From: a virus
Length of the DNA: 64,000 bases
IMG/VR virus record: IMGVR_UViG_3300028558_000001
Span: 112,661-176,660 of that record
Direction: 5' to 3' (one strand)
Made by a program: the position numbers and the translations under genes. Below the pieces are notes generated by a model that was not told the origin of the DNA, made no database searches, and was given only the letters and a program-made list of their open reading frames with translations. Positions 20,627 through 28,292 of the stretch are shown here, piece by piece (positions within the stretch are counted from its first letter, which is position 1; each line of letters begins with the position of its first letter).

Positions 20627-20703
20627 TGGTTGTTCTAACTGGATTTGAACCAATATCTAACGATTATCAATCGCTTGCTCTAACCAGATTGAGCTATAGA
20701 ACA
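20627..20703 (-). tRNA. tRNA-Ile(GAT)
   Basis: Cloverleaf, loop TT-GAT-AA, CCA. Confidence 0.88.
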
Positions 20704-21857: not shown

Positions 21858-22208
21858 TTAATTCAAAACTTCAATCTTTAGATTACCAACTCCATCAAAA
21901 CCAAGAGCCTTTCGGCCACCATAGGTTAGATCAAGTTCAACGCCTTTTCGAAACGGACCACGATCTAGAACCGTTACTTGGAGTGTACGGCCATTCCGCA
22001 CATTTGTCAACAGCAACTTGGTCCCAAACGGGAAGTGTTTATGGGCTGCAATATGTGGATCATAAGCATTAAATGCTTTACCCGAAGCAGTACGATGAGA
22101 GCAACCATCCCCGATACCGTACCACGTTGCCTTACCATAATAAACTCTATTGGCATATGCCGGTGAAGTTAAAAGAAGCGATAAAGCAATTATTAGAATG
22201 TTCTTCAT
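21858..22208 (-). CDS. RlpA-like lytic transglycosylase (double-psi beta barrel) with signal peptide
   Basis: G.ATWYG, TASG, AAHK..PFGT, V.DRGPF, DLT. Confidence 0.85.
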   Translation of the reverse strand: MKNILIIALSLLLTSPAYANRVYYGKATWYGIGDGCSHRTASGKAFNAYDPHIAAHKHFPFGTKLLLTNVRNGRTLQVTVLDRGPFRKGVELDLTYGGRKALGFDGVGNLKIEVLN

Positions 22209-22277
22209 TTGAAAAACTCCTTGTTAAAGGGAGTTGACTGTTCCTCTTACCATCGAGTCACAGACAATCCTGTTAAA

Positions 22278-22417
22278 TGGTCAAGTGTGATAGGGATCGA
22301 ACCTATATTTCCTCTAGTTAAACGTTGTCATATATTCCGGTTTCAAACAACGATGTTACTAACCATTGGAACTCCCGTTCTTTCGGCGGGGGTGTTTTCC
22401 ATTTCACCACACACTTA
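22278..22417 (-). ncRNA. 140-nt tRNA-like RNA with expanded anticodon region
   Basis: 8-bp acceptor TAAGTGTG/CACACTTG plus ACCA; D-arm; canonical T-arm; about 80 nt of hairpins in place of the anticodon arm. Confidence 0.7.
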
Positions 22418-22422
22418 TTTGT

Positions 22423-22493
22423 ATCGGCATCCTATCAATTAGACGACTCGGGGGATTGTCCCCCAAGACTGGATTTGAACCAGTATCTCCGAT
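22423..22493 (-). ncRNA. Circularly permuted tRNA mimic (YrlA Y-RNA-like topology)
   Basis: Order: ATCGG - T-arm - closed 9-bp acceptor hairpin - D-arm - CCGAT. Confidence 0.7.
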
Positions 22494-22523
22494 TCTTTTG
22501 ATACCAAGTTTCCTTGGTATAAA

Positions 22524-22599
22524 TGGTGGACCTGACAGGAATCGAACCCGCGACCTAGTGCTTGCAAAGCACCCGCTCTCCCTACTGAGCTACAAGCCC
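22524..22599 (-). tRNA. tRNA-Ala(TGC)
   Basis: G3.U70, loop TT-TGC-AA, CCA. Confidence 0.92.
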
Positions 22600-22817
22600 T
22601 TAATCTTCGTAACGTATATCTTTAGAAGTAAATGTTAGATTAAAACTCTTATCTCCATTACCAACAAAAGATAACATTCTGTAACCTTGTAAGTGCATTT
22701 CAGCAATCATCTTGTTTGCCTCAAATTCACTCTTTACTTTTTTACTAATTATACCCAACTTACGGAGATAATCATATATCATTTGTTCATGTTTCATAAT
22801 ATATCTCCGTAATAAAT

Positions 22818-22895
22818 TGGTCGGGAAAGCAGGATTCGAACCTGCGACCTCACCGTTCCAAACGGCACACGCTGACCTGACTGCGCTATTTCCCG
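22818..22895 (-). tRNA. tRNA-Pro(TGG)
   Basis: C1-G72, A73, loop TT-TGG-AA, CCA. Confidence 0.9.
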
Positions 22896-27449: not shown

Positions 27450-28292
27450 TCAATAACTTTTTACGGGATCAGGACAAAAATTTTCAAGACCGGGAAATGG
27501 ATTTGGCTTTAAAGGTGCGACTGGCTTTAAAGTGATTCCCCTCTGCCTGAGTCCTGTAGCATCGTCGTAATAGAATGTAAAGGACTCAGAATGAGCATCC
27601 ACGAATTCATTATCTACTGTTTTAGTTTTGAATGCAACATCAGAACCAAATTCAGTACCAAGAGAAGCAGTAGCAACTGGAATAGATGCGGTTGCACTAT
27701 TCATAGTCGCAGTTGCCATAGCAGAGGAATTACATCCTGTTAGATTACTGGCAATATTAGCAATTCCCTTAGTTCTAGGCATTGAAGAATCATAAGCTGT
27801 TGCGGAAGTTGTAAATGTAGCTAACTGTCCAGAAGGAATTCCACCAGTTAATTCCCAATTAGGATCGTTACCTAGAATACCATATGGATACCGTGGAACA
27901 TAATTATTGATCTTAACTACTTCATCAAATACAAGACAGCCGATAACCCCAATGTTCTGAATTTCTCCAGATACATTTTGCTGATTATATGATTCTTTAA
28001 TTGATGAGAAAGTAAATGCGGCGGCTGTACCTTGATCACGCTTAAAACCGGGAATAGCCATCTGTGAATATGGTTTAATAACATATCCCCGCTTCCAGTC
28101 ACGATTTCCTGTGATGACGTTTAAACCATCTACAGATACAACAATTTTCTTGGTGAGATAAGAATTGTTCTTGAAAACAATTTCATATTGTGAGCCTTTG
28201 CGGCCTTCAATAAACGTGTCGCCCTCATGGGAATATTCTGTAATTTTGCGACCGTTAATAGTTACGAAAAATTCGTATTGTGATTTTAACAT
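27450..28292 (-). CDS. Conserved hypothetical protein
   Basis: EGR.G..Y.I..SVDGL.V..G, GVIG, LGT.FG, NPFP motifs; late promoter upstream. Confidence 0.7.
   Translation of the reverse strand: MLKSQYEFFVTINGRKITEYSHEGDTFIEGRKGSQYEIVFKNNSYLTKKIVVSVDGLNVITGNRDWKRGYVIKPYSQMAIPGFKRDQGTAAAFTFSSIKESYNQQNVSGEIQNIGVIGCLVFDEVVKINNYVPRYPYGILGNDPNWELTGGIPSGQLATFTTSATAYDSSMPRTKGIANIASNLTGCNSSAMATATMNSATASIPVATASLGTEFGSDVAFKTKTVDNEFVDAHSESFTFYYDDATGLRQRGITLKPVAPLKPNPFPGLENFCPDPVKSY

What the first reader, a model, noticed from the sequence alone, without database searches (positions are those of the whole stretch)
22421..22520. Circularly permuted tRNA mimic (YrlA-like) inside the tRNA array
Seen (minus strand): ATCGG-AGAT-[ACTGG TTCAAAT CCAGT]-[CTTGGGGGA CAA TCCCCCGAG]-TC-[GTCT AATTGATA GGAT]-G-CCGAT. 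The T-arm comes first, the acceptor stem is closed by a triloop, the D-arm comes last and the anticodon-equivalent stem opens outward. An 8-bp GAAA-tetraloop hairpin precedes it. Established: this is the topology of the tRNA-like domain of bacterial YrlA Y RNAs, which normally accompany Ro60/Rsr, and of permuted tRNA genes. I see no Ro-binding bulged helix and no TROVE gene in this window. Inference: an anticodon-less elbow decoy or scaffold, or a permuted tRNA needing ligation by the phage RNA ligase.
Basis: partly seen in the sequence, partly recalled or inferred. Interest (0 to 1): 0.8.

Follow-up and report, generated by a model that had tools for sequence, protein, structure and literature searches.

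The report
Sealed, anticodon-less tRNA-Glu look-alike RNA
A soil T4-like phage carries, inside its tRNA gene cluster, a small RNA gene built like a tRNA turned inside out (acceptor end sealed, no anticodon); it is conserved in two other uncultured phages, keeps the body features by which cells recognise glutamate tRNA, and has no Ro60 partner, so it is probably a protein-binding tRNA decoy of a kind I did not find described.

Summary
Window 22493-22423 (minus strand, 71 nt) folds as a circularly permuted cloverleaf. An 8-bp GAAA hairpin precedes it, directly after tRNA-Ala.

The feature is real. Covariance models found two diverged copies in other IMG/VR phage contigs (L001:2558-2626 and L109:3845-3925), both directly behind a tRNA-Glu(UUC) gene. 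All four helices are kept: 96.8% of cells pair, against 35-53% in slid controls. The T-like stem has three unrelated sequences.

It is not a YrlA member:
- The complete 176.7-kb genome has no TROVE or DUF2828 gene.
- There is no Ro-binding helix.
- Rfam YrlA gives no hit.
- The T-loop/D-loop elbow is degenerate.
- The sealed hairpin is 7, 9 or 12 bp long.

What is conserved in sequence is the D-arm, the 4-nt variable loop and the top of the closing stem. This is the tRNA-Glu "augmented D helix" (U11-A24, U13.G22:A46, no nucleotide 47). A pattern of this block hits only four identical sites in E. coli K-12, one confirmed as tRNA-Glu gene gltU.

Best reading (inferred): a stable, non-chargeable, non-decoding mimic of the tRNA-Glu/Gln body that binds a protein recognising that body. 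No expression data exist.

This scan has noted permuted tRNA mimics before, in Felix O1-type phages beside Ro60-like genes. This one is Ro-less and differs in geometry.

The parts
22524..22599 (-). tRNA-Ala(UGC) with encoded CCA, immediately upstream (context; presumed co-transcribed)
   Evidence: ARAGORN; Rfam tRNA 64.4 bits
22501..22520 (-). 8-bp hairpin with GAAA loop, 3 nt after the tRNA-Ala CCA. It is kept as an 8-bp hairpin of different sequence in L001 and is absent in L109.
   Evidence: covariation in 5 of 8 pairs; absent in L109
22494..22500 (-). single-stranded linker CAAAAGA
22489..22493 (-). closing stem, 5' strand (equivalent to tRNA positions 39-43); UCGG is invariant in the 3 copies
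22485..22488 (-). 4-nt variable-loop equivalent AGAU (A44, A46, U48; no nucleotide 47)
   Evidence: identity set from PMC9976931
22468..22484 (-). T-like arm ACTGG-TTCAAAT-CCAGT. The stem covaries in 4 of 5 pairs across copies. The loop is canonical only in this copy. Arm plus variable loop are nearly identical to the phage's tRNA-Ile(GAT).
22447..22467 (-). sealed acceptor-like hairpin, 9 bp with loop CAA (7 bp in L001, about 12 bp in L109)
22428..22446 (-). U8 C9, D-arm GTCT-AATTGATA-GGAT and G26. This is a tRNA-Glu-type D-helix (U11-A24, U13.G22) and the most sequence-conserved block of the family.
22423..22427 (-). closing stem, 3' strand CCGAT (equivalent to tRNA positions 27-31; CCG as in E. 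coli tRNA-Glu)
22418..22422 (-). short 3' tail ACAAA, up to the start of the next tRNA-shaped RNA gene
22278..22417 (-). neighbouring 140-nt non-decoding tRNA-shaped RNA (context, not part of the element; absent next to the L001 and L109 copies)

Best explanation
This is a gene for a small, stable, non-coding tRNA mimic derived from a Glu/Gln-type tRNA. It is transcribed as part of the phage tRNA operon and is freed by the nucleases that mature the flanking tRNAs (inferred). It folds into a tRNA-like four-way junction whose acceptor end is sealed by a hairpin and whose anticodon stem simply ends. It therefore cannot be charged, cannot decode, and cannot be cut in an anticodon loop. Selection has kept the four helices, the tRNA core nucleotides and, in sequence, the tRNA-Glu 'augmented D helix' (D-stem, position 26, 4-nt variable loop, top of the anticodon stem). 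The most likely mechanism (inferred) is protein binding by mimicry. The RNA would present the tRNA-Glu/Gln body to a protein that recognises that body and titrate, shield or recruit it. Candidates are a GluRS/GlnRS-type synthetase or a regulator of one, or a host tRNA-Glu/Gln-directed defence nuclease. No Ro60 would be involved.
For: Structure. The four-way junction is the MFE for the core and for the processed unit and for both relatives with their flanks. RNAalifold predicts the same four helices on its own.

Conservation. L001 scores 31.1 bits, E 5e-7, with a single-sequence model. L109 scores 33 bits, E 1.5e-9. Across the three copies 96.8% of cells pair, against 35-53% in slid controls. 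Eight pairs change on both sides, and 0 of 500 shuffles reach this.

tRNA core. U8, A14, A15/U48, A21 and G26/A44 are present in the window and L001 copies and can be read in L109.

tRNA-Glu body. L109's D-stem is identical to that of E. coli gltU; the window copy differs only at position 25. The identity set U11-A24, U13.G22:A46 and no nucleotide 47 (PMC9976931) is complete in the window and L109 copies. The block conserved in the three copies, used as a pattern, hits only 4 identical sites in 4.6 Mb of E. coli K-12, one inside annotated gltU; the reversed-pattern control gives 1 hit. The pattern occurs once in the window, with 0.00 expected. Two of the three copies directly follow tRNA-Glu(UUC).

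Context. There is no promoter or terminator between tRNA-Ala and the element, and no coding support for overlapping ORFs.

Precedents. YrlA is a sealed tRNA mimic (PMC4201824; 10.1101/312249). mascRNA is an anticodon-less tRNA-like RNA with tRNA-Glu determinants that acts through GlnRS (PMC9976931). The phage also carries tRNA-Glu(UUC), tRNA-Glu(CUC) and a Glu-like paralogue with an odd anticodon loop.
Against: Only three copies are known, all metagenomic, and the alignment was fitted by the model. There is no transcript, end-mapping, binding or phenotype datum. L001 departs from the Glu set (C13-G22, C46); its D-stem equals that of this phage's tRNA-Gln, so 'Glu' versus 'Gln' is not settled. 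GluRS and anticodon nucleases also read the anticodon, which is missing here, so affinity could be low. No partner protein was identified in the genome or among the ORFs of the tRNA array. The Glu-like block could be inherited from the parent tRNA and kept for folding only.
Confidence: 0.45

Rival explanations
1. It is a cis-acting processing or stability module of the tRNA operon. A compact tRNA-shaped fold placed right behind a tRNA would define the tRNA's 3' end or protect the downstream RNA or mRNA, with no trans-acting role.
For: It always lies 0-33 nt after a tRNA CCA end and has no promoter or terminator of its own. In L001 and L109 a small ORF starts 25-33 nt downstream. The 5' hairpin is optional.
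Against: A stabiliser needs no tRNA core nucleotides and no sequence-conserved tRNA-Glu D-helix. In L109 a TATAAATA late-promoter-like motif lies between the element and the ORF. In the window the downstream neighbour is another RNA gene, not an mRNA.
Confidence: 0.15
2. It is a two-piece tRNA-like molecule. RNase P would open the sealed acceptor, the 3' strand would be trimmed and given CCA as in M. smegmatis YrlA, and the product might be charged or re-joined by the phage RNA ligases.
For: [quoted passage not shown] L001 has a 7-bp stem with a 6-nt loop. The phage encodes Rnl1- and Rnl2-type ligases.
Against: The stem is 9 bp in the window (positions -1 and -2 pair with 73 and 74) and about 12 bp with a bulge in L109, so no fixed ruler is kept. 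The loop sequences are unrelated. There is no anticodon-loop sequence in the flanks and the flanks are not conserved. The ligases are ordinary T4-like equipment. The phage has no CCA-adding enzyme.
Confidence: 0.08
3. It is a true Y RNA of the YrlA kind that works with a Ro60 protein, either the host's Rsr or a phage Ro-like protein too diverged for Pfam.
For: It has the same permuted, acceptor-sealed topology (PMC4201824; 10.1101/312249). Phage Ro60-like proteins recognisable only by structure exist next to tRNA arrays (Bas63 gp130, PMC11482910).
Against: TROVE and DUF2828 are absent from the complete genome, while PF11443 does detect the Felix O1 protein at 69 bits. There is no helix formed by the 5' and 3' ends beyond 4-6 bp and no GNCGAA motif. 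RF02553 gives no hit. YrlA's conserved T and D stems and GG elbow are not kept.
Confidence: 0.07
4. It is a decaying by-product of tRNA-Glu/Gln gene duplication and recombination in the array, with no function of its own.
For: It is tRNA-derived and sits next to tRNA-Glu. The window copy's T-arm looks copied from tRNA-Ile(GAT). The elbow nucleotides are degenerate. The family is rare, with 3 copies found.
Against: Three diverged lineages keep all four helices through compensatory changes and keep a 20-nt block nearly invariant, while the neighbouring intergenic DNA is unalignable. The flanking protein is only 70% identical between the window and L001.
Confidence: 0.08

Closest known systems
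YrlA Y RNAs (Rfam RF02553; Salmonella, M. smegmatis, mycobacteriophages; Chen et al. 2014 PMC4201824; Wang et al. 2018 10.1101/312249)
   Same: Both are circularly permuted tRNA mimics with the order variable region, T-arm, loop-closed acceptor stem of variable length, D-arm, and an anticodon-stem equivalent that opens outward. Both keep the tRNA core tertiary nucleotides, are tRNA-derived and can lie next to tRNA genes.
   Different: This element has no Ro60/TROVE or DUF2828 gene in the genome, no Ro-binding module and no hit to the Rfam model. YrlA's conserved T- and D-stem sequences and its two-guanine elbow are not kept. Instead a tRNA-Glu-type D-helix is conserved. It is only 71 nt and is embedded in a T4-like phage tRNA operon.
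mascRNA (the tRNA-like small RNA cut from MALAT1), as summarised in PMC9976931
   Same: Both are anticodon-less, non-chargeable tRNA-like RNAs that carry tRNA-Glu identity determinants and are produced by tRNA-processing enzymes. mascRNA acts by binding a Glx-family synthetase (GlnRS).
   Different: mascRNA is eukaryotic, has normal (not permuted) topology with a free CCA-tailed acceptor, and shows no sequence relationship to this element.
Permuted tRNA genes of Cyanidioschyzon merolae and other algae and archaea (from my own knowledge of Soma et al. 2007; not re-read here)
   Same: The 3' half of the tRNA is encoded upstream of the 5' half, and the acceptor strands are joined by a short intervening loop.
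   Different: Those genes mature into complete tRNAs with an anticodon loop through a circular intermediate made by the splicing endonuclease and ligase. Here no anticodon loop exists.
Felix O1-type phage 'Y-like' permuted tRNA mimics beside a DUF2828/Ro60-like gene
   Same: Both are phage-encoded, sit inside tRNA arrays and have an acceptor-sealed permuted tRNA design.
   Different: The Ro60-like gene is absent here. My models R2 and R3 and the descriptor scan find no element of this geometry in Felix O1; the only hits there are tRNA-junction artefacts. I did not see their shared 'handle' here.
Phage T4 species 1 and 2 stable RNAs, and long tRNA-shaped RNAs such as window 22417-22278 and Aeh1 96384-96505
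   Same: All are non-decoding, tRNA-derived RNAs encoded in T4-like tRNA clusters. The Aeh1 example also has a tRNA-Glu-type D-arm.
   Different: Those have normal topology with free acceptor ends and a large insert in place of the anticodon arm. R3 finds nothing in T4.

Membership tests
YrlA (RF02553) | Encoded next to, and bound by, Ro60/Rsr (TROVE protein) | tested here: not met
   There is no TROVE (PF05731) match at E<=1 and no DUF2828 (PF11443) match in the complete 176.7-kb genome. The positive controls work (D. radiodurans; Felix O1). Binding itself cannot be tested here.
YrlA (RF02553) | Ro60-binding helix formed by the 5' and 3' ends, with the conserved GNCGAA(N)G motif | tested here: not met
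   The closing stem is only 4-6 bp, the flanks do not pair, and no such motif is present.
YrlA (RF02553) | Scores above the Rfam gathering threshold (69 bits) | tested here: not met
   The element gets no hit at E<=10. The weak hits elsewhere in the genome are junctions of adjacent tRNAs.
YrlA (RF02553) | Permuted order V-T-AS-D with a loop-closed acceptor stem and no anticodon loop | tested here: met
YrlA (RF02553) | Strongly conserved T- and D-stem sequences, and a canonical T-loop plus two D-loop guanines forming the elbow | tested here: not met
   The T stem differs in 4 of 5 pairs among copies. The T-loops are TTCAAAT, GTCGTGC and ACTCATAG. GG occurs in the D-loop only in L109.
Permuted tRNA gene (matures to a decoding tRNA) | The mature product has a complete anticodon loop (U33, anticodon, R37) | tested here: not met
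   The flanks CAAAAGA and ACAAA give no U33 context and are not conserved in L109.
Permuted tRNA gene (matures to a decoding tRNA) | Circular or ligated processing intermediate | not testable with these tools
   No RNA reads cover the locus; the runs holding it are DNA contigs.
Two-piece (permuted) tmRNA | Match to RF04321 or ARAGORN tmRNA; tag reading frame; G3.U70 | tested here: not met
   RF04321 scores 13.8 bits (threshold 47), and only when tRNA-Ala is included; the hit is gone without it. ARAGORN calls no tmRNA. The acceptor has C3-G70.
tRNA-Glu (body identity set for GluRS, E. coli rules) | U11-A24, U13.G22:A46 triple, absence of nucleotide 47 | tested here: met
   The window and L109 copies have all of them. 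L001 has U11-A24 and no nucleotide 47, but C13-G22 and C46. The rules are from PMC9976931. The pattern hits only four identical sites in E. coli K-12, one of them the tRNA-Glu gene gltU.
tRNA-Glu (as a functional tRNA) | Anticodon U34 U35 C36 A37, G1-C72 and U2-A71, free CCA end | tested here: not met
   There is no anticodon loop, the acceptor is sealed and starts C1-G72, C2-G71. It mimics the body only and is not a tRNA-Glu.

The most novel reading that the evidence does not exclude
A Ro60-independent class of phage-encoded tRNA-Glu/Gln body mimics. These are sealed, anticodon-less RNAs that phages place behind their own tRNA-Glu genes. They would work as uncleavable, unchargeable decoys that blunt a host defence aimed at tRNA-Glu/Gln, or that reprogramme GluRS/GlnRS or their regulators. 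That would be an RNA-based counterpart of protein anti-defence factors.
Probability: 0.2. Interest if true: 0.8.

Novelty: new variant of a known kind. Interest (0 to 1): 0.58.

Why it matters
Phage tRNA arrays are now read mainly as a way to replace host tRNAs destroyed by defence nucleases. A conserved array member that cannot decode or be charged, yet keeps the recognition surface of one particular tRNA, would point to a second strategy: RNA mimicry aimed at a tRNA-binding protein. It also shows that the YrlA design (sealed acceptor, open anticodon end) exists without Ro60, so the design itself and not only the Ro60 partnership may be what is useful. The conserved D-helix block gives a concrete, mutable handle for pull-downs and for synthetase or nuclease assays.

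Tried and rejected
- Rfam at the gathering threshold and at E<=10 gave nothing but tRNAs. A weak permuted-tmRNA hit vanished once tRNA-Ala was excluded.
- The YrlA model on the whole genome hit only junctions of adjacent tRNAs.
- blastn (near and distant modes) of the element and of the L001 copy against 50,697 phage records found no match outside tRNAs.
- An exact 35-mer in IMG/VR found nothing.
- IMG/VR patterns, filtered with R2, gave only L001 plus a tandem-tRNA artefact in L032. The pattern gave L109.
- Metagenome contigs reached through the RlpA-like neighbour gave 9 distant loci with no tRNAs and no element.
- The genome contigs pattern gave 46 chance hits in GC-rich genomes, none passing R2.
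- The clamp-loader anchor and the 119-aa neighbour found only relatives of 49% identity or less, or none, and no element in their records.
- R3 on T4, Aeh1, Cr30, Melnitz, S-SSM7, HTVC008M, Moby and Felix O1 gave only two-gene junction artefacts.
- Four further rhizosphere runs hold identical fragments, so they give no variation.
- Pfam and PHROGs on array ORFs produced no RNA-partner candidate.
- MAFFT misaligned the full units, so the hairpin and the core were analysed separately.

Full report
**What is there.** On the minus strand, tRNA-Ala(UGC) (22599-22524, CCA encoded) is followed after 3 nt by an 8-bp GAAA hairpin (22520-22501). The module alone folds into the permuted cloverleaf as its minimum-energy structure (-27.6 kcal/mol). 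The presumed processed unit, from the end of tRNA-Ala to the start of the next RNA gene (106 nt), has hairpin plus four-way junction as its MFE (-38.5 kcal/mol), with pair probabilities of 0.76-1.0. The different MFE arose only because 13 nt of the downstream RNA gene were included. With the two halves swapped back and a dummy anticodon loop inserted, ARAGORN (run at a relaxed 90% threshold) accepts it as a tRNA. A descriptor scan finds this topology once in the genome, at a score (22.5) above all other hits (16.5-19); shuffled genomes give 1-3 hits each. There is no sigma-70-like promoter or intrinsic terminator between tRNA-Ala and the module on its strand. Overlapping ORFs have no family support.

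**The genome.** The window is part of a complete 176,660-bp IMG/VR virus record with terminal repeats. It is a deeply branching T4-like phage: UvsW is 44% identical to that of Caulobacter phage Cr30, and clamp loader and RegA show T4 synteny. It carries 24 tRNA genes. It was assembled from rhizosphere DNA, and identical fragments occur in four other rhizosphere runs.

**Is it real? Relatives.** A single-sequence covariance model (R1) found one relative at L001:2558-2626 (31.1 bits, E 5e-7). A pattern that fixed only the closing stem and the D-side found a second at L109:3845-3925 (33 bits with R2, E 1.5e-9). Both lie directly behind a tRNA-Glu(UUC) gene. L001 also has an 8-bp hairpin in front of the module, with a different sequence (5 of 8 pairs changed on both sides). 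L109 has none, and its module abuts the CCA. Both relatives fold into the same four-way junction as their MFE, flanks included.

On the three-sequence alignment, 96.8% of pair cells are standard pairs, against 35-53% when partners are slid. Eight pairs show changes on both sides, and 0 of 500 shuffles reach this. RNAalifold predicts the same four helices by itself. The T-like stem has three unrelated sequences (ACTGG, GTGTG, GTAGG). There are caveats: only three sequences, an alignment fitted by the model, and no expression data.

**What is and is not conserved.**
- The sealed acceptor-like hairpin is 9 bp with a 3-nt loop in the window, 7 bp with a 6-nt loop in L001, and about 12 bp with a bulge and a 4-nt loop in L109.
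- The T-loop is canonical only in the window copy. In L001 the arm can zip up to 7 bp with a 3-nt loop. In L109 the loop has 8 nt.
- A GG doublet in the D-loop occurs only in L109. No copy has both halves of the tRNA elbow lock, so the elbow is not the selected surface.
- The core nucleotides are kept in all three copies: U8, A14, A15/U48, A21, G26/A44 and G53-C61 (for the window and L001; L109 read).
- The block from U8 to position 29, together with UCGG-A and a 4-nt variable loop, is nearly invariant.

**The conserved block is a tRNA-Glu-type 'augmented D helix'.** L109's D-stem (GUCU/GGAC) is identical to that of E. coli gltU, and the window copy differs only at position 25 (locus L114). 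The top three pairs of the closing stem (CCG/CGG) also match gltU. The published major body determinants of E. coli tRNA-Glu are U11-A24, the U13.G22:A46 triple and the lack of nucleotide 47 (PMC9976931). The window and L109 copies have all of them. L001 has U11-A24 and no nucleotide 47, but C13-G22 and C46, and its D-stem equals that of this phage's tRNA-Gln.

As an independent test, I used the block shared by the three phage elements as a pattern. It hits exactly four sites in the 4.64-Mb E. coli K-12 chromosome, all with the same string. One lies inside annotated gltU. From my own knowledge, the other three are the remaining tRNA-Glu genes in rrn operons. The reversed-pattern control gives one hit. 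In the window the pattern occurs once, with 0.00 expected. Among the phages' own tRNAs, the best matches to the 5'-half side are tRNA-Glu(UUC) and tRNA-Gln(UUG). In the window copy, the variable loop plus T-arm is almost identical to that of the phage's tRNA-Ile(GAT), which suggests recombination within the array.

**Comparison with YrlA.** The topology is that of YrlA (PMC4201824; 10.1101/312249). Membership fails on every other defining feature tested:
- There is no TROVE and no DUF2828 gene in the complete genome. PF11443 does detect the Felix O1 Ro60-like protein, so this negative is meaningful.
- There is no terminal Ro-binding helix or motif.
- The Rfam model gives no hit.
- YrlA's conserved T and D stems and its elbow are not kept.

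The permuted-tmRNA reading was rejected. A decoding permuted tRNA is excluded by the absence of any anticodon-loop sequence. Cleavage by RNase P with CCA addition, shown for the 7-bp-stem YrlA of M. smegmatis, is conceivable for L001. It is not a conserved property, given the 9- and 12-bp stems elsewhere. The phage has Rnl1- and Rnl2-type ligases, as T4 does, and no CCA-adding enzyme.

**Mechanism.** Shown here:
- a conserved tRNA-derived four-way junction with a sealed acceptor and no anticodon;
- its position inside tRNA operons;
- conservation of the tRNA-Glu/Gln D-helix.

Inferred: it is co-transcribed with the tRNAs and released by their processing enzymes. Its 5' end would be protected by the hairpin where present, and its 3' end would lie next to the closing stem. 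It would accumulate as a stable RNA and bind a protein that recognises the tRNA-Glu/Gln body, while being unchargeable, non-decoding and not cleavable in an anticodon loop.

Candidate partners are GluRS/GlnRS-type enzymes or their regulators; mascRNA, which acts through GlnRS, is a precedent (PMC9976931). Host nucleases directed at tRNA-Glu/Gln are another candidate; Cas13a, for example, prefers tRNA Lys, Glu, Gln and Thr (PMC11042736). The phage's three Glu-type tRNA genes fit a conflict centred on tRNA-Glu, but that is circumstantial. No partner was found computationally.

**Distribution and novelty.** I found three copies, all in uncultured phages. None turned up in eight cultured phages, including T4 and Felix O1, nor by pattern search in one genome each of 185,579 prokaryote species. 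Searches of PubMed Central and bioRxiv found YrlA, phage Ro60 homologues and the Bas63 gp130 suggestion, but no description of a Ro-less, tRNA-Glu-type permuted mimic. Earlier notes of this scan describe permuted mimics beside Ro60-like genes in Felix O1-type phages. My models and descriptor do not find this geometry there. I therefore rate it a new variant of a known kind.

**Limits.** `look-up of encoding contigs` was closed, so likely further copies in Logan contigs (neighbour protein P0002, 84% identical) could not be read. No RNA data cover the locus.

Noticed in passing
L123:1380-1700 (Aeromonas phage Aeh1 NC_005260, about 96,384-96,760, minus strand): Two adjacent long tRNA-shaped RNAs that ARAGORN does not call. 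One is about 125 nt with an 11-bp acceptor stem and two T-arm-like hairpins. The other is 122 nt, annotated 'tRNA-Val CAC', with a 9-bp acceptor, a tRNA-Glu-type D-arm (TC-GTCT-AGTGGTA-GGAC-A) and a roughly 60-nt insert in place of the anticodon arm. They belong to the same class as window 22417-22278.
   Followed up: partly
window 22468-22488 and 20627-20703: The element's variable loop plus T-arm (AGAT-ACTGG-TTCAAAT-CCAGT) differs by one base from that of the phage's tRNA-Ile(GAT). This suggests gene conversion or recombination between array members.
   Followed up: partly
L109:3926-4075: Directly 3' of the L109 copy lies an AT-rich stretch containing TATAAATA (the T4 late-promoter consensus). 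A Shine-Dalgarno-like AGGA and a 37-aa, very basic ORF (MAKKKVSKS...) follow.
   Followed up: no
window 21858-22208 (minus) and L001:2995-3342: A secreted RlpA-like DPBB protein (PF03330, 116 aa, 70% identical between the two phages) is encoded inside the tRNA array, a few hundred bases downstream of the element in both phages.
   Followed up: partly
L109:4371-4934 and L001:about 2200-2437: ORFs ending in a PEP-CTERM-like sorting tail (VPELS.W...L.G...KRK) lie next to the tRNA-Glu genes in both relatives, which is unusual cargo for a phage tRNA region.
   Followed up: no
L001:1330-1700: The ORF that follows tRNA-Ala in the relative looks, by eye, like a GIY-YIG-type homing endonuclease. It occupies the place where the window has the element.
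   Followed up: no
L060:1538-1632 (Felix O1 NC_005282, about 27,805-27,900): The 96-nt gap after tRNA-Thr starts with a D-arm-like hairpin (GGTC-AAGTGAAA-GACC) that makes R2 and R3 score the junction. It may be one of the Felix O1-type non-tRNA RNAs.
   Followed up: no
window 22150-22850: Identical fragments of this phage occur in at least four other rhizosphere metagenome runs of 2019 (five coded studies, possibly one campaign). The phage therefore recurs in that habitat.
   Followed up: partly
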